49,530 nt of DNA from Escherichia phage grams. Location: the sequence record NC_049825.1; one strand, given 5' to 3'. This document shows, in pieces, positions 3,135 through 42,392 of the stretch. The notes beneath the pieces are model-generated. The model saw nothing but the letters and a program-made list of their open reading frames with translations, had not been told where the DNA came from and searched no databases. The stretch's first letter is position 1. The number at the start of each line of letters is the position of its first letter. Position numbers and translations under genes: made by a program.

Positions 3135-3786
3135 GCCTACTGGTCATTATTCCATCTATTCCATTAATCAGGAATAACAGGAATAACTCATTCGCGATCA
3201 CCTGGATTGTGAGACTTTGAGTTTGGTCAATTTTAATCAGTTGATTAACTTTTTGTGTGGAGGGGATAGAGAAACGCGGCCCTCTTGCGTCCTTTCCAGC
3301 AATCCTGGCGCGCGCATCTGTTATTTCTGTTCCCCGCGTTATCTCAATCAAGCCTCCGCACTTTGAGATAACGCAATCAGCGTTCATAAACAAAAAGAAC
3401 AAAATAAAATTTATATATATACACATAAAATCAATAAGTTAGTTATATATGTATTTATATTTGTTATTTACTGTTATGCTTGTTCTGTGGGTATATGGTA
3501 GTGTGGTATTGTTTTTGGTGATATGTATGTGTGGTTGTATACTTTTTAATCAATGGTAATGCGTGGTGATTTTTGTATGTATATATATGGGGTGGCGGCA
3601 ATCCTCCGTCAACCAGGTTAACAAGGTCATTTTTATCTGTTAAACCAATAACTTAACTTGTGCATTTTGTTATCTTTAAACGCGCCACACGCCAAAAGTC
3701 GTTATTAAAACACAAAATATATTGACATGTAGGAAAGGCAAGGCAATAATGCATCCAGTTTAAACGCAACAAAAGGAGTAGATGCC
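3135..3786. repeat. AT-rich non-coding region A (diverged paralogue of 32268..32692)
   Basis: No convincing ORF; shares AATCAATAAGTTAGT, GGTGATTTTT and TTTTGTTATCT blocks with region B. Confidence 0.6.
3722..3750 (+). promoter_or_regulatory. canonical sigma70 promoter (candidate early promoter)
   Basis: TTGACA-N17-AATAAT, about 36 bp upstream of ATG 3787. Confidence 0.6.
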
Positions 3787-4275
3787 ATGAGCGAAGAAAA
3801 TATTAGCACCATGTCGCGCAGTGAGTTCTGCGATATGCTTCGCACCCTGGGCGCGGCAATTGGTAGCGGTGAACGTAATAATGTATTCATGCCAGCACTT
3901 TTCTTGTGCGCTAACGTGGAGAACGGCGACGCAATTACAGCATCGTACATGCGCCAGGTTGTAAACCGCGTACCAGAAGTGAAGCAAAAAGGCGTGATCA
4001 GCATTAAGCGAAAGGTGACTGATGAGGGTGATGGCTTTGTGTTTACGCTCACAGAAGCCAAAAGCAAGCCACGCGTTCTGACTGGTGAAGAAATCGACGA
4101 GATCGCAGAAAAGCGCGCAGAGAAGGCGGTAAGCAAAATCCTTAATCACCTTGTAAGCGTAATGCCAAATATCACAGACCTGGAAGGCGATAAACTTGCT
4201 GGAGCGTGTGAGGCTATCGGGCGCTACCAGGATATGATTCGTAAACTCGCTGGAGGAAAAGAGGTAAAATTCTAA
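3787..4275 (+). CDS. hypothetical early protein (162 aa)
   Basis: ORF with RBS AAAGGAG; first gene downstream of sigma70 promoter. Confidence 0.6.
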   Translation: MSEENISTMSRSEFCDMLRTLGAAIGSGERNNVFMPALFLCANVENGDAITASYMRQVVNRVPEVKQKGVISIKRKVTDEGDGFVFTLTEAKSKPRVLTGEEIDEIAEKRAEKAVSKILNHLVSVMPNITDLEGDKLAGACEAIGRYQDMIRKLAGGKEVKF

Positions 4276-31963: not shown

Positions 31964-32191
31964 TTACAGACTGCAATCAGCGTTTTTAAAGTTGTCAATG
32001 CTTACCCACTGAAAATTAAACGGATAGCCAGCCTTAACAAGAGTGCGGTCGCCAACTCGTTTTACTTCAAAAATAGCAACTGAATACTGCATACCGCTAT
32101 TTTCATAAATAGCCGTGCATTCACGTTTAGGCATATTTGCGCAACCAGTCAGGGTTACGGCTGCAATCAAAACGGCGATTAACTTTTTCAT
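31964..32191 (-). CDS. outer-membrane lipoprotein, Cor-like superinfection exclusion candidate
   Basis: 75 aa; signal peptide plus lipobox LTGC; small size, location just after the J gene and opposite orientation. Confidence 0.5.
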   Translation of the reverse strand: MKKLIAVLIAAVTLTGCANMPKRECTAIYENSGMQYSVAIFEVKRVGDRTLVKAGYPFNFQWVSIDNFKNADCSL

Positions 32192-32222
32192 GTTGGTGTC
32201 TCCTTCGTTGTTGTTGGTTGCA

Positions 32223-32267
32223 ACTATACACGATCTTACAGCAGGCGTTTAGCAAAAAGTGCTATTC
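32223..32267 (-). promoter_or_regulatory. conserved 22-bp element plus -10 (TATAGT), leftward
   Basis: GAATAGCACTTTTTGCTAAACG-N17-TATAGT on minus strand, upstream of lipoprotein gene. Confidence 0.5.
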
Positions 32268-32692
32268 TGTTCTTTTTGTTCTCCTGCGTTCTCAAATCTG
32301 CGGAGGCGTAAATTTAGAGCAAAAAGTGAGCAATAACAGAGCGCGATATATACAGATAAATATATATACATACATATAAATCAATAAGTTAGTAGTATAT
32401 ATATTAATGTTTGTTCTTTATTGTTATCTGTGTTTTGTGTGATTTTGTGTGCCTGGTGATTTTTCTGTGATTATGCATGTGTCAGTGGTTATGTGTGTCT
32501 ATATATCTATATCCGGCGCAAATTGAGGAACAAGAGAACAAAAAGACAACAAAGATATTTATCAATCACTTACATGTAAGTTTTGTTATCTAAGTTGGCG
32601 AGAACGTTGTTAAAACAGAAAAAACAAAATAACTATTGACTAAACGCATCAAATAGCTACAATGCAGGCATACCAACCAATGAGGGTAAATC
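32268..32692. repeat. AT-rich non-coding region B (diverged paralogue of 3135..3786)
   Basis: Shares AATCAATAAGTTAGT, GGTGATTTTT, TTTTGTTATCT and GTTGTTAAAAC blocks with region A. Confidence 0.6.
32636..32663 (+). promoter_or_regulatory. canonical sigma70 promoter (candidate early promoter)
   Basis: TTGACT-N16-TACAAT about 30 bp upstream of ATG 32693. Confidence 0.6.
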
Positions 32693-33754
32693 ATGAATAA
32701 GTTTATGGCGTACACCAGCGAAGAAATGAGTAATGAGCTTTATCACGATCCAGAAGCGTGGACGGCTGATTATGTTAGTGGATCAAGCCTGGCCGAGATT
32801 TACAGCACATGCCCGGCGGCGTGGAAGTTCAAGCCTCGTGACGATAAGAGCAAGGCGCTAGTTTTTGGTACACAGTCGCATACCAACTTTGAAAGCAATG
32901 AGCTTTTCGAAAAAACCTATCGACGCGCGCCAGCGCCAGAAGACTTTAAGGATCTGATAACTAGCCAAACTGCGCTTGCCGCAAAACTGAAATCATTTGG
33001 CCTGAAAGGTACAACCGGAAAGACTTATCCAGACCTTATCAAAATGATGGTCGATTGCGGAGAAGACCTTAACGTCATGTGGTTAATCGACATGATCGCA
33101 GAAAGCCAGGCCAGGGCCGACGGAGTGCAGTTAATCGACGCTAAAGACTACGACGCTTGCGTTGCAATGCGCCAGGTTCTGGAATCAATACCTGAACATA
33201 ACGCATGTATGAATAGCAAGACAGCACAACGTGAATTATCGTTGTTCGGTGAAATCAACGGCGTAAAAGTCAAAGTGCGATGCGATCACGTTGACGTAAC
33301 AAAGAACGTAACAGCAACTTTGATTGATGGTTACGATGAAAAAGGTCAACCGATTTGCCGCGATATTATTTATCCAGAGGCGATTGTGATCACTGACTAC
33401 AAAACAACAATGAGCGCTAATCCGGTTGAGTTTATGCGCCTGGCTTACAATCACGGCTATTATTTGAAAATGGCGTTGCAATGTGATTTATTCAGGAAAG
33501 CGTATCCAGAAGAAAAGCGACCTATAGTTGTGCGCCTGTTAGCGCAAGAGAAGAAAGAGCCTTATTTGCCGTTGGCTTTCCGCATGAACAGCGAGCAGTT
33601 GAAGATCGGGCGCATTCAGTACATGAGCGTAATTAACCAGTTTGCCATGTGCCAGCAGCATGACGTTTGGCCTTCGTATTCAAACGGTGAGCCGGAGGTT
33701 TGTCTTGATACTCCTGATTGGGTGCGCCGCCAGTTTAAGCAATATCTTATTTAA
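32693..33754 (+). CDS. PD-(D/E)XK exonuclease (recombination exonuclease candidate)
   Basis: 353 aa; RCDHVD and ITDYKT blocks fit a D...(D/E)xK nuclease core; heads an Erf/SSB module. Confidence 0.55.
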   Translation: MNKFMAYTSEEMSNELYHDPEAWTADYVSGSSLAEIYSTCPAAWKFKPRDDKSKALVFGTQSHTNFESNELFEKTYRRAPAPEDFKDLITSQTALAAKLKSFGLKGTTGKTYPDLIKMMVDCGEDLNVMWLIDMIAESQARADGVQLIDAKDYDACVAMRQVLESIPEHNACMNSKTAQRELSLFGEINGVKVKVRCDHVDVTKNVTATLIDGYDEKGQPICRDIIYPEAIVITDYKTTMSANPVEFMRLAYNHGYYLKMALQCDLFRKAYPEEKRPIVVRLLAQEKKEPYLPLAFRMNSEQLKIGRIQYMSVINQFAMCQQHDVWPSYSNGEPEVCLDTPDWVRRQFKQYLI

Positions 33755-33835
33755 ACAGCACAAATAGCTAAACAAATGAAAAATGCGGTGTTATAATTCA
33801 CCGCATAAGTTAACAACAAGCGTGAGGAAATAAAC

Positions 33836-34114
33836 ATGGAAAACAAACAAGTTTCAGATGTGGCAGTTCATATCAACAATTTTGCAACTGGCATGGCTAT
33901 GTTGCTTCGTGACTTTGTGGCGCCGCTTGATCCAACGGCAGGCGCAGAAGAAATGGAGTACATCAGAAAAGTAATGGATGCAGTCGATAACGTCGTACTT
34001 GTTGCAACAATGAGCGAAGACAACGATGAAGCAGTAAAGGCGGTTAAAGAAAGTACTGATCGCATGATGGAAAATCTGATTAAATTACACACCAAAGAAG
34101 AAACAAAGCATTAA
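33836..34114 (+). CDS. hypothetical protein (92 aa)
   Basis: ORF with RBS GAGGAAA. Confidence 0.5.
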   Translation: MENKQVSDVAVHINNFATGMAMLLRDFVAPLDPTAGAEEMEYIRKVMDAVDNVVLVATMSEDNDEAVKAVKESTDRMMENLIKLHTKEETKH

Positions 34115-34159
34115 CAGCAATAAGGCGGCGAAAGCCGCCATTAATTACGGGAATTAATC

Positions 34160-34816
34160 ATGAAACTATCAGAGCAATTCGACAAGGTTTTACCAGCACT
34201 GCATAAAGCGCGTAGTTTGTTTGTAAAGGTGAAGAAGGATAAGCAAAACACGCACCTCAAAAACCGTTACGCGACACTTGATGCCGTACTTGATGCAATT
34301 ACTCCAGCATTGAATGATAACGAGCTAATGTTGATGCAGGATATGATTGAAAGCGAACAACCTAACCGAATAAAGGTTGAAACTACAGTCCTGCATGTTT
34401 CCGGTCAGTGGGTTAAATTCTATGCTGAATTACCAATAGTTAAAAACGATCCTCAAGGTGTAGGATCTGCATTCACATACGCGCGCCGTTATGCAGCCGC
34501 CGCAGCATTTGGCTTAAGCCAGGCAGACGATGACGCACAGATTGCCGTTAAATCTGCAAACGACTGGAAACGTGACATTGAGAAATGCGAAAGCGTAAAT
34601 GAATTACAAGAAGTGCTTAAATCAGCATGGAAGGCAAGCGATCCGGCAAGCAAGCAGGTAATTAAAGAGCATTACGAAAAACGCAAGGCAGAGCTTGAGA
34701 TAGGCAAAGCACGAGGATTTAATCCAGCGCAACCAAAGCAAAATCTTGCCTCGCCAGAAGTTGACACAAAAAACGACGAGCAAGTAAAATCACAAAGTAT
34801 CACTGATTTTGAATAA
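34160..34816 (+). CDS. Erf-like single-strand annealing protein
   Basis: 218 aa; [14 protein letters not shown] block; location between exonuclease and SSB. Confidence 0.65.
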
Positions 34817-34860
34817 TTGACATGGGGCGATTGCGCCCCTTTTTTACAGGAGAATAAATA

Positions 34861-35313
34861 ATGCATATCATTACTGGTGAGATCCGAAAAGAGCCGCGAG
34901 TAAAGCAAATGCCTAACGGCAGCACACTTTATGTGGTTGAACTTTCAGAGCGATACAAAGATAAAGATGGAAACTGGCAATATACAAACTACAGTTTCTT
35001 TTTTAATGCGAAAACTGACGGACTTAATGGTTGGTATGCTGAGGCGTTCCAGGTTGGCAAGGTTATTTCTGTTTCTTGTGACACTCTGCGCATTGAAACG
35101 CGAGAATACAACGGAAAGATGTATTCAAGTTTAATGCCTGGTGGATTTGCAAATCTTATCTTCAGTCAGCGAGGGGAAAGCCAGCAACAATATCAGCAGC
35201 GAACGCAAGGAGGATGGGGCCAACCACAACAACAGAATCAACCGCAACAACCGCAACAGCCAAGACAAAGCAATCAACCTCCTATGGACTTTGACGACGA
35301 CATTCCTTTCTGA
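34861..35313 (+). CDS. ssb: single-stranded DNA-binding protein
   Basis: 150 aa; Gln/Pro-rich linker and acidic C-terminal tail DFDDDIPF. Confidence 0.8.
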   Translation: MHIITGEIRKEPRVKQMPNGSTLYVVELSERYKDKDGNWQYTNYSFFFNAKTDGLNGWYAEAFQVGKVISVSCDTLRIETREYNGKMYSSLMPGGFANLIFSQRGESQQQYQQRTQGGWGQPQQQNQPQQPQQPRQSNQPPMDFDDDIPF

Positions 35314-35317
35314 TCAA

Positions 35318-35345
35318 CAAAGGGGCATTACGCCCCTTTTTCACT
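35318..35345. terminator. bidirectional intrinsic terminator
   Basis: AAAGGGGCATTACGCCCCTTTTT between convergent genes. Confidence 0.7.
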
Positions 35346-39783: not shown

Positions 39784-40257
39784 TTAGCAATTAGTGCTTT
39801 CAGGTTTATACAGGAATCCGCCAGGTTCATAATCTGACATTCTTACCACTCGCAACATTTCACGCTTATCACATCTCTTTGTGAGCGGTTTACCATTGGA
39901 ATCAAATCGCAGATCTGGACGGCAGAATGACGCGCGATAGCCTTGGCAGCCATATTTTTTGTAATCGTTATGCACCTTTTGAGCGCCAGCGGCTGAAATC
40001 ATACCGCGAACACGCCACTGATTTACAGTTTGCTGGCTAACGTTAAGACGTTTTGCCATTGCTGACACACTTCCGTAATACTCAATAAGGATATCAAGTC
40101 GCGCTTTTAGCCCGGCACGCACCTCATCTTTTAAAACATAGTATCCTGTAGGGCGCTTGCGCTTTTTCTTATCTTTACCCCGTCGAGTTCCGTTATTGCC
40201 ATTAATTGTGCGCTTGTCAATCTTTCCTGTTGATACTGCGATTCGCTGTTCTTTCAT
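39784..40257 (-). CDS. HTH DNA-binding regulator
   Basis: 157 aa; helix-turn-helix AKRLNVSQQTVNQWRVRG; basic N-terminal region; RBS GGAGAA. Confidence 0.6.
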   Translation of the reverse strand: MKEQRIAVSTGKIDKRTINGNNGTRRGKDKKKRKRPTGYYVLKDEVRAGLKARLDILIEYYGSVSAMAKRLNVSQQTVNQWRVRGMISAAGAQKVHNDYKKYGCQGYRASFCRPDLRFDSNGKPLTKRCDKREMLRVVRMSDYEPGGFLYKPESTNC

Positions 40258-40268
40258 TATTCATTCTC

Positions 40269-40314
40269 CAATAGCATTTTTTGTTAAACGATGATTTAAT
40301 GATTGTGTATTATA
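40269..40314 (+). promoter_or_regulatory. conserved element (variant) plus -10 (TATTAT) for helicase operon
   Basis: CAATAGCATTTTTTGTTAAACG-N17-TATTAT. Confidence 0.5.
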
Positions 40315-40336
40315 CACGCCAAATGGCATTACTCAA
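40309..40336 (-). promoter_or_regulatory. sigma70 promoter for regulator/primase operon
   Basis: Minus strand TTGAGT-N16-TATAAT with TG extension; -10 lies in near-palindrome GTGTATTATACAC. Confidence 0.5.
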
Positions 40337-40346
40337 AGGTTTTAGA

Positions 40347-42392
40347 ATGATTCCAAACATTGAAAAGCAAATATCAGCACTTGGTGAAGCGGTAATTAAA
40401 TCCATTCAGGAGCGATTCACTGTTGGCGAGATTGTGCCTTACCCTTACCAGTGCGTTGCATACGCTGAGATCGCAAAGCGCATGAAAAATTATGAGCATC
40501 CATTCTTTGTTAAAGCGTCCGTATCGGCTGGAAAAACATTGATGTTTGCAATGGTTGCTCACCAGTGCCGGAAAATGGGCTTGAAAATGATGGTCCTTGC
40601 TCGCCAGGCTGAGATTGTGGATCAGGATTCTGAAGAGATAACAAATCTTGGCGTGCCGAACTCCATCTATTGTGCAGGACTGAAGACAAAAAGCGCATAC
40701 TTTCCGATCGTTGTTGGTTCTGAGGGAACTGTAGTTAATGGACTGTTTAAAGCGCTTGGCGACTATGTTCCGCACGTTATCGGGATTGACGAGTGTCACC
40801 AGGTGGATTGGGAAGACCTTGCCGACGCCATAGAGAAAGACGAGTCATTTTTACAAATGACGACGAAGAAAGGCGAAAAAGTACCAAATCCAGATTATGA
40901 CATAACAAAGGGAAGCAGGAACAGAAATACAGAGTTCCTGATTGGTGAGGATGGCTTGCCAATGGAGGGAACAGGCCGCACGCAATACACTGTCATTATC
41001 ATGGAAATGATGCGACGTTGCAGGAAAGCATACGGTCATGAACTGCGCATCTTTGGTATGACTGGATCGGAGTTTCGCGGCGTAGTTCCAATACTGGTAG
41101 AAGATAAAAAGCAGAAAGGATTTTGGCGTGAACAGGTTACTAATATTGACACCAACTACCTAATCAAGTTCGGTTCTGTTGTTCCGACTAATTTTGGCGA
41201 CGTTGGCGATCTCGGGTATGACCTTTCAGAGTTTGAGGCATCCAGTGAGGATGGCGTTGCAGACTTTGACGCTAAAACGCTTCGTAGGATGGAACAAAAA
41301 ATTCATGAAGAAGCGACCATGACAAAGCGCATCATGGCGAAAGTGCACGAGATCTGTAAAAACCGTAACGGTGTACTTGTGACATGTGCAGGCGAAAGGC
41401 ACTGTAAAGAGGCAGCGGCAGCATTGCCGCCTGGAACGACTTACAGGATCATTACTGGTAAGACTGGCGATAACCAGCGCAAGGAGTGGTTGAAAGAAGC
41501 ATACGAGGGAAAGGTTAAATACATCTTCCAGGTGCAGGCGCTAACTACTGGCGTTAACGTGCCGTTTTGGGATACGTCTGTTATTCTGCGTAAGATTGGA
41601 TCTCTTACGTTGCTGATTCAGCTTTTAGGTCGCGGAATGCGACTACTTAAGAAGTGGCATAAGGAGCAAGGATTCCAGAAGGATGATCATCTAGTCATGG
41701 ATTTTTCAGGAACGATGGACGAGCTAGGGGAGCTTTATTTTGATCCGATACTGGAACAGGCGCAGCACCAGAAGCGATTTAGGAACGGTAAAGATCCGAA
41801 GCCTTGTCCTGTTTGCGGAACTCTTAACAGCTATTATGCTCGTCGTTGTATGAACGTAGATGAAAACGGCAACAGATGCGAGTGGTTCTTTAAATTCAGG
41901 ACATGTGATGATCAGATTGACCCGCGCACTAAAAAGATTATTCATCGCGGTTGCGGAACGAAGAATGATATTGCGGCCAGGGTATGCAGACATTGCGACA
42001 TGTCATTGATTGACCCTAACGAGAAGTTAAGCGGAAAGCACTACACAAAAAACGACTGGTTCCAAGTGCAATCTTTCGCGGTTGACATGACGAAAAACCA
42101 GAAAGGGATAATATTTAATTATGAGCTTTCCGATGGCATAGATACTTTCAAGGCGAGAGAGATATTTTTCCCTGAATCTGAAAGCCAAATTTGTCGCGCA
42201 AAATGGCGAAGCGTTGCTCTTAAGCACATACCAGATCGCCGTGTCGCTGGCATGGTCGCGAGCTATCGTAATGCACGTAAAATCATGCAATATGTGAATC
42301 ACATTATGCCACCATCGCGTGTGACTCACCGCAAGACGAGCAAGGGCGAAGATAATTTGTACAAGAAGGAATTTAATTATGGCAATGACTGA
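40347..42392 (+). CDS. superfamily 2 DNA helicase with C-terminal zinc ribbon
   Basis: Walker A SVSAGKTL, DECH box IGIDECHQV, motif VI QLLGRGMR; CxxC pairs near C-terminus; start at 40347 chosen for SD. Confidence 0.75.
   Translation: MIPNIEKQISALGEAVIKSIQERFTVGEIVPYPYQCVAYAEIAKRMKNYEHPFFVKASVSAGKTLMFAMVAHQCRKMGLKMMVLARQAEIVDQDSEEITNLGVPNSIYCAGLKTKSAYFPIVVGSEGTVVNGLFKALGDYVPHVIGIDECHQVDWEDLADAIEKDESFLQMTTKKGEKVPNPDYDITKGSRNRNTEFLIGEDGLPMEGTGRTQYTVIIMEMMRRCRKAYGHELRIFGMTGSEFRGVVPILVEDKKQKGFWREQVTNIDTNYLIKFGSVVPTNFGDVGDLGYDLSEFEASSEDGVADFDAKTLRRMEQKIHEEATMTKRIMAKVHEICKNRNGVLVTCAGERHCKEAAAALPPGTTYRIITGKTGDNQRKEWLKEAYEGKVKYIFQVQALTTGVNVPFWDTSVILRKIGSLTLLIQLLGRGMRLLKKWHKEQGFQKDDHLVMDFSGTMDELGELYFDPILEQAQHQKRFRNGKDPKPCPVCGTLNSYYARRCMNVDENGNRCEWFFKFRTCDDQIDPRTKKIIHRGCGTKNDIAARVCRHCDMSLIDPNEKLSGKHYTKNDWFQVQSFAVDMTKNQKGIIFNYELSDGIDTFKAREIFFPESESQICRAKWRSVALKHIPDRRVAGMVASYRNARKIMQYVNHIMPPSRVTHRKTSKGEDNLYKKEFNYGND

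What the first reader, a model, noticed from the sequence alone, without database searches (positions are those of the whole stretch)
32268..32692. AT-rich non-coding region B, paralogue of region A, between the Cor-like gene and the recombination module
Carries the same ordered blocks as region A (IHF-like AATCAATAAGTTA near 32380, GGTGATTTTT, TTTTGTTATCT, GTTGTTAAAAC) and a canonical promoter TTGACT-N16-TACAAT (32636..32663) driving exonuclease, Erf and SSB. It is flanked on the left by an element-type promoter for the lipoprotein gene. Two copies of an early control region driving different operons would allow coordinated early expression and could also serve as recombination substrates.
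Basis: seen in the sequence. Interest (0 to 1): 0.65.

Follow-up and report, generated by a model that had tools for sequence, protein, structure and literature searches.

The report
Duplicated early-promoter control element of T1-like phage
Region B is one of two related copies of a roughly 430-base non-coding element found in all T1-like phages examined: an easily melted AT-rich core joined to a conserved host-type promoter for the recombination genes, so it most likely controls early transcription and is also a candidate for the still-unmapped replication origin.

Summary
32192-32692 is non-coding (GC 0.33 against 0.44 for the genome). It is collinear with region A (about 3318-3786). Its TTGACT-N16-TACAAT promoter sits 30 nt upstream of the exonuclease gene.

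The window is a Hanrivervirus-like member of Drexlerviridae. The promoter corresponds to the predicted TLS promoter "P51". It is kept in 41 of 45 relatives, with fixed hexamers and a diverging spacer.

Several features are not described in any paper I could search.
- In five genomes from five genera, the cores of A and B are the two least stable 150-bp stretches of the whole genome.
- Both cores have the same block order: TGTT/AACA repeat blocks, GC clamps, (TA)n runs, two IHF-consensus sites and a G+T-rich strand.
- The same layout occurs in a Klebsiella phage.

My best reading (0.45) is an upstream activating region, sensitive to IHF and supercoiling, joined to an immediate-early promoter. 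The main rival (0.3) is that the cores are unwinding elements of replication origins.

I found no support for a structured RNA, a pac site or an oriC-like origin. A role as a crossover substrate is unlikely, because the longest identical run shared by A and B is 16 nt. Function remains inferred. Interest is moderate.

The parts
32223..32265 (-). Leftward promoter of the Cor lipoprotein gene, of the family-wide 21-nt repeat type. It consists of box ATAGCAC (32259-32265), a weak -35-like CTAAAC (32247-32252), an 18-nt spacer and a -10 TATAGT (32223-32228).
   Evidence: One search shows about 17 copies of the repeat, oriented with the genes, each at a fixed distance from a conserved YATAAT. The repeat was described in TLS with unknown function (PMC11447400).
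32267..32293 (.). Left arm, CTGTTCTTTTTGTTCTCCTGCGTTCTC, made of three TGTT-type repeats. It marks the left edge of cross-genus conservation.
   Evidence: TTTTGTT and GTT are invariant in the alignments. Sequences to its left cannot be aligned between genera. The block pattern is shown.
32300..32341 (.). GC clamp (GCGGAGGCG, 32300-32308) followed by an inverted A-rich arm (CAAAAAGTGAGCAATAACAGAG, 32320-32341).
   Evidence: The same order is seen in A and B of the window, tonijn and TLS, and in the Klebsiella phage.
32345..32510 (.). AT-rich core (GC 0.26) with (TA)n and alternating purine-pyrimidine runs. Its plus strand is rich in G and T and poor in C from 32395 to 32510. It contains internal TGTT repeats at about 32408-32440 and the block GGTGATTTTT.
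   Evidence: It is the second least stable 150-bp stretch of the genome, 4.1 SD from the mean; region A is first at 4.7 SD. The same holds in T1, TLS, Rtp and tonijn. In 45 of 45 IMG/VR loci the least stable stretch starts 168-390 bp upstream of the exonuclease gene. (TA)n clusters are shown and base counts.
32379..32391 (+). IHF-consensus site 1 (AATCAATAAGTTA). It lies in the middle of the least stable stretch and is flanked by an 11-bp (TA)-rich inverted repeat.
   Evidence: It falls within a 16-nt run identical in region A at 3428-3443. It is conserved in Hanrivervirus and Warwickvirus but not in Tlsvirus or T1-like genomes. The flanking inverted repeat is seen in the fold.
32513..32554 (.). 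Second GC clamp (CCGGCGC, 32513-32519) and right arm (GGAACAAGAGAACAAAAAGACAACAAAG, 32527-32554). The right arm is inverted relative to the left arm.
   Evidence: GAACA and AACA are invariant. The pattern is shown. AGAACAAA/TTTGTTCT occurs 4 times in A plus B and 0 times elsewhere in the genome.
32560..32572 (+). IHF-consensus site 2 (TATCAATCACTTA), 76 bp upstream of the -35 hexamer.
   Evidence: Its position is conserved in all Tempevirinae (block AATCAWNNNACTTA). T1-like genomes have a consensus match at about the same place on the other strand, with the N positions varying. Region A has a one-mismatch site 77 bp upstream of its own -35 (3645-3657).
32581..32633 (+). Promoter-proximal conserved blocks: TTTTGTTATCT (32581-32591) and an A-rich, UP-element-like arm GTTGTTAAAACAGAAAAAACAAAATAAC (32606-32633).
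   Evidence: Conserved. The 200-bp window 32461-32660 ranks third in the genome for 10-11 bp phasing of A and T tracts (99.8th percentile).
32636..32663 (+). Sigma-70 promoter P_exo: -35 TTGACT, a 16-nt spacer and -10 TACAAT. The start of transcription is predicted near 32670 and the Shine-Dalgarno sequence lies at 32682-32686.
   Evidence: It is conserved in 41 of 45 relatives whose exonuclease is 62-99% identical, with variable spacers, and also. It corresponds to TLS P51.
32693..35313 (+). The operon driven by this promoter: exonuclease VIII-like gene (32693-33754), a small ORF (33836-34114), Erf (34160-34816) and SSB (34861-35313).
3318..3786 (+). Region A, the related copy with the same block order: left arm, clamp, core 3401-3590, IHF site 3429-3441, right arm, a one-mismatch IHF site at 3645-3657, and promoter 3722-3750. 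It drives the DUF7174 gene at 3787.

Best explanation
Region B is a composite control element that acts on its own DNA molecule. It is one of two related copies kept in every T1-like phage genome examined.

The promoter-proximal half (about 32513-32670) is a strong promoter of the host sigma-70 type. It carries an A-rich, UP-element-like tract, phased A and T tracts, and an IHF-type bend site about 76 bp upstream of the -35. Unmodified host RNA polymerase would use it immediately after infection to transcribe the exonuclease, Erf and SSB genes.

The distal half (about 32267-32510) is the easiest DNA in the genome to melt. It is bracketed by GC clamps and TGTT/AACA arms, and in this lineage an IHF site sits at its centre.

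I propose that the distal half acts as an upstream activating region that responds to supercoiling and IHF, as in the E. coli ilvPG promoter. Negative superhelical stress, increased by the divergent Cor and exonuclease promoters, would concentrate in the core. Protein binding there would hold the core closed and shift the destabilisation towards the promoter's -10. The proximal bend would bring upstream A-rich DNA against the polymerase.

Region A would do the same for the early small-gene operon, so the two operons would be switched on together.

Shown: the sequence anatomy, the relationship between A and B, the conservation and the duplex instability.
Inferred: early timing, IHF binding and the activating mechanism.
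For: - The promoter hexamers are conserved at -56 to -62 from the exonuclease ATG in 41 of 45 relatives, while the spacer changes. Alignments confirm this, as does a Klebsiella phage.
- TLS was predicted to have only three intergenic sigma-70 promoters, which correspond to region A, region B and the regulator/primase promoter.
- The element always lies directly upstream of the exonuclease operon, although its left-hand neighbours vary: Cor, the tail protein J gene, or other membrane protein genes.
- Spacing between the proximal IHF-like site and the -35 is the same in A and B (77 and 76 bp).
- The IHF consensus is enriched: 4 of the 10 genomic matches fall in A plus B, which is 2.5% of the genome (Poisson 1.3e-4).
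- Phasing of A and T tracts in 32461-32660 lies at the 99.8th percentile of the genome.
- The core is the least stable stretch in five genomes and in 45 of 45 loci, and the IHF consensus sits inside it. This is the arrangement reported for ilvPG UAS1 (PMC10783518).
Against: - No data on transcription start sites or timing exist for this family in the searchable library.
- The hexamer score alone is not exceptional.
- The core lies 140-290 bp upstream of the -35, further than in ilvPG (about 90 bp). The core-to-promoter distance also differs by about 36 bp between A and B.
- IHF site 1 is absent from Tlsvirus and T1-like genomes, although the unstable core persists there.
- The third near-consensus promoter (40336-40309) has no such core.
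- Newly injected linear DNA may not hold supercoils.
Confidence: 0.45

Rival explanations
1. The cores of A and B are DNA-unwinding elements of the phage's replication origins. They could be two origins, or an origin plus a second required site as in P4 ori/crr or SPP1 oriL/oriR. The TGTT/AACA arms would be binding sites for a lineage-specific initiator. A candidate is the Cro-like HTH protein encoded next to the primase. The flanking divergent promoters would provide transcriptional activation. The promoter role of the proximal half could coexist with this.
For: - The cores are the two least stable stretches in five genomes from five genera and in 45 of 45 loci.
- They are bracketed by GC clamps and by repeated short motifs in inverted blocks.
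- The repeated motif differs by lineage. In T1, TGTAACA/TGTTACA occurs 6 times in A plus B and 0 times elsewhere. In TLS and tonijn it is TGTTCAC. Rtp uses TTACGC/GTTACA types.
- The recognition helix of the Cro-like protein also varies by lineage.
- IHF sites are common at origins that use repeated initiator-binding sites (iterons).
- Published papers state that the origin of T1-like phages has not been found.
- P4, whose alpha primase domain is related to this phage's primase (E = 6e-11), uses TGTTCACC repeats at two separate sites.
Against: - The window has no regularly spaced iteron array.
- There are no DnaA boxes in B, and GATC is depleted.
- No relative of the P4 alpha origin-binding domain was found.
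- The regulator is Cro/YdaS-like and could equally be a transcription factor.
- Neither element lies next to the primase or helicase genes.
- GC skew is confounded by the direction of transcription.
- No replication data are available.
Confidence: 0.3
2. The element is mainly a structural or nucleoid-protein feature. It could be a flexible or curved insulator, or a sink for proteins such as H-NS or Fis, placed between divergent transcription units, with no specific activating or origin role.
For: It has a high AT content, many TA and CA/TG steps and phased tracts. It always lies between divergent promoters.
Against: Specific short blocks are invariant between A and B and across genera, which goes beyond base composition. 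Only these 2 intergenic regions carry the element. The order of the blocks is conserved.
Confidence: 0.1
3. B is a second or pseudo packaging (pac) site. It would be related to the pac-containing region A, with IHF and flanking repeats arranged as in P1 pac.
For: The T1, TLS and Rtp records all start inside region A. TLS coordinate 1 is its assigned pac, AGATTT. The SU57 paper places pac in this untranslated region and reports several possible ends from PhageTerm.
Against: The assigned pac position lies about 200 bp to the left of the core, in a part of A that has no counterpart in B. The older T1 literature, recalled from memory, describes a single pac site.
Confidence: 0.05
4. A and B persist as substrates for homologous recombination, either for rearrangement or for recombination-dependent replication.
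For: A and B are more alike within Rtp (score 141) and within T1 (66) than either is to its counterparts in other genomes (59 or less, and 58 or less). This suggests occasional gene conversion.
Against: The longest identical run in the window is 16 nt, and identity is about 75%. A crossover between these direct repeats would split the genome. In Tempevirinae, A is about as similar to the B of other genera as to its own B.
Confidence: 0.04
5. The core encodes a small structured RNA or a small protein.
For: Some GenBank records annotate hypothetical proteins in this region.
Against: Rfam gave no match, even at E = 1. Folding z-scores are -0.39 and -0.71. Alignments show indels that break any reading frame and low conservation across the 38-codon ORF. 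RefSeq annotates nothing here. No terminator was found.
Confidence: 0.03

Closest known systems
Predicted sigma-70 promoters P51 and P01 of phage TLS (Kropinski, Misra and colleagues 2024, PMC11447400)
   Same: P51 occupies the corresponding position directly upstream of the exonuclease gene. P01 opens the rightward early small-gene block in region A. Both have TTGAC-type -35 hexamers.
   Different: That paper lists only the hexamers. It does not describe the upstream element, the relationship between A and B, the duplex instability or the IHF-like sites, and it states that no origin was found.
E. coli ilvPG UAS1, where IHF and supercoiling-induced duplex destabilisation activate the promoter (reviewed in PMC10783518)
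   Same: An IHF site lies exactly within the most easily melted DNA upstream of a sigma-70 promoter.
   Different: The distance is about 290 bp rather than about 90 bp. IHF binding and dependence on supercoiling are untested here. IHF site 1 is not conserved in every lineage.
Phage lambda early control regions OL/pL and OR/pR (from my own knowledge)
   Same: Lambda also has two related early control regions. One of them, pL, drives the recombination genes exo, bet and gam. IHF and a distant UP element stimulate pL. A Cro-like HTH protein is encoded in this phage.
   Different: The window has no palindromic operators overlapping the -35 or -10. Its large AT-rich core has no equivalent in lambda. 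This is a virulent phage with no CI-type repressor.
Satellite phage P4 ori and crr
   Same: P4 needs two separate sites that carry the same short repeat, TGTTCACC. This was verified in the P4 record. TLS and tonijn arms contain TGTTCAC(C). The primase is related to P4 alpha residues 26-262.
   Different: The window's arms read TGTTCT or TGTTAT. The alpha origin-binding domain is absent. In P4 the repeats are tightly clustered 8-mers.
Family-wide 21-nt direct repeats of T1-like phages (aaATAGCACnnnTTGnTAAAA)
   Same: One copy forms the left border of region B and drives cor. The A-rich arm upstream of P_exo resembles its T-tract/TTGTTA part.
   Different: P_exo lacks the ATAGCAC box. It has a consensus -35 and a 16-nt spacer, so it belongs to a different promoter class.

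Membership tests
sigma-70 (housekeeping) promoter | -35 and -10 hexamers close to TTGACA and TATAAT, with a 16-18 nt spacer | tested here: met
   TTGACT-16-TACAAT, 10 of 12 matches, at 32636-32663.
sigma-70 (housekeeping) promoter | The match is better than chance expectation | tested here: not met
   The scan found 2 sites against 3.6 +/- 2.3 in shuffles. There are 17 matches of at least 10 of 12 genome-wide, most of them inside genes.
sigma-70 (housekeeping) promoter | Hexamers and their position are conserved in relatives while the spacer diverges | tested here: met
   Seen in 41 of 45 loci at -56 to -62 from the ATG, in the alignments, and in the Klebsiella phage.
sigma-70 (housekeeping) promoter | A mapped transcription start and activity with host RNA polymerase | not testable with these tools
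   No paper on transcription start sites in Drexlerviridae is in the library.
IHF binding site | Consensus WATCAANNNNTTR | tested here: met
   Matches at 32379-32391 and 32560-32572. There are 10 genomic matches against 4.3 +/- 2.0 expected, and 4 of them lie in A plus B.
IHF binding site | Conservation of the consensus positions in relatives | tested here: inconclusive
   Site 1 is present only in Hanrivervirus and Warwickvirus. The block holding site 2 is conserved in Tempevirinae, often with one mismatch. T1-like genomes have a match at about the same place on the other strand.
IHF binding site | Protein binding and DNA bending | not testable with these tools
   This needs a gel-shift assay or a footprint.
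Replication origin of the iteron type (repeated initiator-binding sites) | An easily melted AT-rich unwinding element | tested here: met
   The cores are the two least stable 150-bp stretches in five genomes and in 45 of 45 loci.
Replication origin of the iteron type (repeated initiator-binding sites) | An array of repeated initiator-binding motifs | tested here: inconclusive
   TGTT/AACA blocks are enriched and ordered, and T1 and Rtp have lineage-specific motifs. The window has no regular iteron array.
Replication origin of the iteron type (repeated initiator-binding sites) | DnaA boxes or GATC clusters, as in oriC | tested here: not met
   There is no DnaA box in B, even allowing one mismatch. 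GATC occurs 2 times against 6.7 expected.
Replication origin of the iteron type (repeated initiator-binding sites) | Replication starts there | not testable with these tools
   This needs marker-frequency analysis, 2D gels or a plasmid amplification assay.
P4-type ori/crr | Type 1 repeats TGTTCACC | tested here: not met
   The window's arms read TGTTCT, TGTTAT or TGTTCC. TLS and tonijn have TGTTCAC(C). The P4 repeats were verified.
P4-type ori/crr | An alpha-type origin-binding domain encoded by the phage | tested here: not met
   tblastn with P4 alpha matched only residues 26-262, the primase domain. The neighbouring regulator is Cro/YdaS-like.
pac site | Coincides with the mapped or assigned packaging end | tested here: not met
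   Coordinate 1 of the T1 and TLS records lies in the A-specific left part of region A, which has no counterpart in B.
Structured non-coding RNA | A family match or unusually stable, conserved fold | tested here: not met
   Rfam gave no match. Folding z-scores are -0.39 and -0.71.
Lambda-type pair of early control regions (OL/OR) | Two related regions, each with an early promoter | tested here: met
   The early timing itself is inferred.
Lambda-type pair of early control regions (OL/OR) | Repressor or Cro operators overlapping the promoter | tested here: inconclusive
   None is evident in the window. In T1 region A, GTGTAACAC overlaps the -10 area.

The most novel reading that the evidence does not exclude
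The two related elements are the long-sought replication origins of T1-like phages, or an origin plus a second required site. In this reading each element is an unwinding core with an IHF site, flanked by lineage-specific binding sites for the Cro-like protein encoded next to the primase. Each would be fired by divergent early transcription, so one module would couple early gene expression to the start of replication.
Probability: 0.25. Interest if true: 0.7.

Novelty: new variant of a known kind. Interest (0 to 1): 0.5.

Why it matters
T1 is one of the classical coliphages, yet its replication origin and its early/late regulatory circuit remain undefined. The TLS and SU57 genome papers say explicitly that no origin was found, and the TLS paper lists open questions about the family's repeats.

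This analysis narrows the search to two conserved elements of about 430 bp each. It gives exact coordinates for promoter fusions, IHF footprints, deletions and marker-frequency tests.

It also separates two promoter classes:
- 3 near-consensus promoters (regions A and B, and the regulator/primase promoter) that lack the ATAGCAC box
- about 17 promoters that carry the ATAGCAC box

That split suggests a simple early-to-late cascade that can be tested directly.

Tried and rejected
- **Structured RNA.** Rfam gave nothing at the gathering threshold or at E = 1, and folding was no better than shuffles.
- **tRNA.** None was found.
- **Coding potential.** The small ORFs in the region are not conserved, and indels break their frames.
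- **P4 alpha-type origin recognition.** The regulator next to the primase is Cro/YdaS-like, not the alpha winged-helix domain. The P4 alpha C-terminus has no relative in the window.
- **oriC-like features.** B has no DnaA boxes and no GATC cluster.
- **One long inverted repeat flanking the core.** Only weak, degenerate arms were found, scoring 18-35. The real pattern is alternating blocks of short repeats.
- **TTGTTA as the -35 of the 21-nt repeats.** I first read it this way. Base counting shows 21-22 nt to the -10, so I corrected this to a weak TTAAAA-type -35 with an 18-19 nt spacer.
- **GC-skew origin predictions in the literature.** They are confounded by the direction of transcription.
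- **Literature searches.** Searches for T1 start-site mapping, a T1 origin, and the bare string TGTTCACC returned nothing useful. The Rtp genome paper is not held in the library.
Full report
**Identity of the window.** The region and its flanks match Escherichia phage aaroes (Drexlerviridae, Tempevirinae, Hanrivervirus) at 98.9% identity, and about 60 other T1-like phages at 90-97%. Region B is the divergent intergenic space between two genes. One is the Cor superinfection-exclusion lipoprotein gene (31964-32191, minus strand). The other is an exonuclease VIII-like gene (32693-33754, plus strand). The exonuclease gene is followed by a small ORF, Erf and SSB.

**Check of the observation.** All named blocks are at the stated positions. 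The region has a GC content of 0.325 against 0.441 for the genome. RefSeq annotates no gene in it. The similarity to region A is far above chance. The local alignment of A 3407-3532 with B 32358-32482 scores 108, while 300 dinucleotide shuffles give 23 +/- 2.6. Exact shared blocks of 16, 11 and 11 nt occur in the same order. Both regions end in near-consensus sigma-70 promoters.

A five-sequence alignment shows collinearity from the left arm to the start codon. It includes A and B of the window, A and B of the Warwickvirus phage tonijn, and B of a Klebsiella phage. In tonijn the A-B alignment runs over about 370 nt.

**The promoter.** On hexamer score alone TTGACT-16-TACAAT is not remarkable. 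There are 17 equally good matches genome-wide, and the scan count does not exceed shuffles. Its support comes from conservation.
- I recovered 45 IMG/VR loci with the exonuclease protein as query (59-99% identity).
- A TTGACN-N15-18-TANAAT promoter lies 56-62 nt upstream of the ATG in 41 of them.
- The hexamers are fixed while the spacers differ.

The promoter corresponds to the predicted promoter P51 of phage TLS. [quoted passage not shown] P01 lies in the TLS counterpart of region A. The window's equivalent of P57 is TTGAGT-16-TATAAT at 40336-40309, on the minus strand. It lies upstream of a Cro/YdaS-like HTH gene and the primase gene.

**The left flank.** The 21-nt repeat at 32246-32267 is one of about 17 copies, all oriented with the genes. 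TLS has 18 such repeats, described as being of unknown function. In the window each copy lies at a fixed distance from a conserved YATAAT. The layout is box ATAGCAC, then a weak -35-like (T/C)TAAAA, then 18-19 nt, then the -10. I corrected my first reading of this layout.

**The new finding: the core.** I computed nearest-neighbour duplex stability in 150-bp windows along each genome. The cores of A and B are the two least stable stretches of the whole genome. They lie 4.7 and 4.1 SD from the mean in the window. The same holds in T1 (Tunavirus), TLS (Tlsvirus), Rtp (Rtpvirus) and tonijn (Warwickvirus).
- In all 45 IMG/VR loci, the least stable stretch of the 6-kb locus begins 168-390 bp upstream of the exonuclease gene.
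- (TA)n clusters mark the same two places in the window, T1 and Rtp.
- The plus strand of the core is strongly asymmetric. In B it has 62 T, 26 G, 19 A and 9 C. In A it has 74 T, 36 G, 30 A and 6 C.

**Architecture.** Marking TGTT and AACA along the sequences gives the same alternating pattern in A and B of the window, tonijn and TLS. The Klebsiella phage shows it too. From left to right the order is:
1. TGTT repeats
2. a GC clamp
3. AACA repeats
4. a (TA)n stretch with an IHF-like site
5. TGTT repeats
6. a G+T-rich stretch
7. (TA)n
8. a GC clamp
9. AACA repeats
10. a second IHF-like block
11. TTTTGTT
12. an A-rich AACA arm
13. the -35 hexamer

Cross-genus alignments show which short blocks are invariant. 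They also show that homology begins exactly at the left arm. AGAACAAA/TTTGTTCT occurs 4 times in A plus B and nowhere else in the window. In T1, TGTAACA/TGTTACA occurs 6 times in A plus B and 0 times elsewhere. Rtp uses other motifs.

**IHF-like sites.** WATCAANNNNTTR matches 10 times in the window, against 4.3 +/- 2.0 in shuffles. Four of these matches lie in A plus B, which make up 2.5% of the genome (Poisson 1.3e-4).
- Site 1 (32379-32391) lies in the centre of the least stable stretch. It falls within a 16-nt run identical in A, but it is conserved only in Hanrivervirus and Warwickvirus.
- Site 2 (32560-32572) lies 76 bp upstream of the -35.
  - Its block is conserved across Tempevirinae.
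  - T1-like genomes have a consensus match at about the same place on the other strand, with the N positions varying.
  - Region A has a one-mismatch site 77 bp upstream of its own -35.

Phasing of A and T tracts at 10-11 bp in 32461-32660 ranks third in the genome.

**Relation to packaging.** The T1, TLS and Rtp records all begin inside their counterparts of region A. TLS coordinate 1 is its assigned pac sequence, AGATTT. It lies about 200 bp to the left of the core. The SU57 paper places pac in this untranslated region. That left part of A has no counterpart in B. The shared element is therefore not the pac site itself.

**Evolution of the pair.** Within Rtp the A-B alignment scores 141. Either copy scores 59 or less against any counterpart in another genome. 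In T1 the figures are 66 and 58 or less. In Tempevirinae, A is about as similar to the B of other genera as to its own B. This indicates occasional homogenisation between the copies, or shared lineage-specific binding proteins. The window's copies share at most 16 identical bases in a row, which makes them poor substrates for crossing over.

**Candidate binding proteins.** The only annotated regulator is a Cro/YdaS-like HTH protein next to the primase gene. Its recognition helix differs between lineages:
- QQTVNQW in the window
- NQTVQGW in T1
- LKTVWGW in TLS
- PQAVEEW in Rtp

The window and tonijn are nearly the same at this helix. This variation loosely parallels the motif differences between lineages. 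With only five genomes it is no more than a lead. The primase is related to the primase domain of P4 alpha. P4 uses TGTTCACC repeats at both ori and crr, and TLS and tonijn arms contain TGTTCAC(C). However, the alpha origin-binding domain is absent and the window's arms differ, so membership of that family is not supported.

**Interpretation.** The proximal half behaves like a conserved strong promoter with upstream bend and UP-like features, tightly linked to the exonuclease operon. The distal half is a conserved, exceptionally unstable and flexible stretch. Two mechanisms fit.
- **Upstream activating region (confidence 0.45).** It would respond to IHF and supercoiling, as at ilvPG, where the IHF site lies exactly in the destabilised DNA and binding shifts the opening to the -10 (PMC10783518).
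- **Replication-origin unwinding element (0.30).** It would be flanked by initiator sites and activated by divergent transcription. This could coexist with the promoter role.

Other readings score low. They are a structural insulator, a pseudo-pac site, a recombination substrate, and a small RNA or protein.

**Novelty and interest.** The promoter itself was already predicted in TLS. Three things are not in any paper I could search: the paired architecture, its conservation across the family, and the fact that the two copies are the genome's two easiest melting sites. Two papers state that the origin is unknown. This is a new variant of known kinds of control or origin elements, and its interest is moderate.

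Noticed in passing
window: about 17 copies, for example 400(-), 2255(-), 3132(-), 4276(+), 5266(+), 6540(+), 7842(+), 9208(+), 32265(-), 40271(+), 42795(+), 43836(+), 47087(-), 49254(-): The family-wide 21-nt repeats, whose function is called unknown in the TLS paper, lie at a fixed distance from a conserved -10. The layout is box ATAGCAC, N6, a weak -35-like (T/C)TAAAA, 18-19 nt, then (C/T)ATAAT. They look like activator-dependent promoters of a class distinct from the three near-consensus promoters.
   Followed up: partly
window 400(-), 42795(+), 43836(+), 47087(-): the spacers of those repeat-type promoters: The spacer between the repeat and the -10 often contains a GC-rich inverted repeat, for example gccagg...cctggc. 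Read on the opposite strand, this is followed by the T-rich part of the repeat, so it may act as a terminator for antisense transcription.
   Followed up: no
window 40257-40347: A near-consensus leftward promoter (TTGAGT-16-TATAAT, 40336-40309) serves the Cro-like regulator and primase genes. Its -10 overlaps, face to face, the -10 of the rightward repeat-type promoter (box at 40271) of the helicase gene.
   Followed up: partly
window 3135-3320 (left part of region A); L002 1-100; L003 1-60: This A-specific zone has GATTG/TGATT-type repeats and an extra IHF consensus match (3234-3246, minus strand). It corresponds to the place where the T1, TLS and Rtp records begin. TLS coordinate 1 is its assigned pac, AGATTT, so this zone probably holds the packaging start.
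   Followed up: partly
window 39784-40257 (-), and the counterparts in L002-L005: The Cro/YdaS-like regulator has an invariant N-terminal basic segment (DKRxINGNNG). Its HTH recognition helix varies between genera.
   Followed up: partly
window 33836-34114 (+): The small ORF between the exonuclease and Erf genes is labelled 'tail length tape measure protein' in RefSeq and PHROGs. Given its size and its position in the recombination operon, this looks like a propagated misannotation.
   Followed up: no
phage database hits: Eighteen records named 'Campylobacter phage' (MG0656xx) match this coliphage region at 92-93% identity. They are probably T1-like coliphage contaminants or mislabelled assemblies.
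   Followed up: no
window 33769-33797, 34843-34871, 34820-34847, 35317-35344: Two further intergenic promoter-like matches lie inside the exonuclease-Erf-SSB operon. Hairpin plus T-run terminator-like sites lie before and after the SSB gene.
   Followed up: no
L002 (T1) 575-600 of region A (about 400-430 in the T1 record): T1 region A carries three tandem copies of CGATTAACA just upstream of its -35, and a doubled AAATTACGCC to the left of its core. These resemble iterons and have no equivalent in the window.
   Followed up: no
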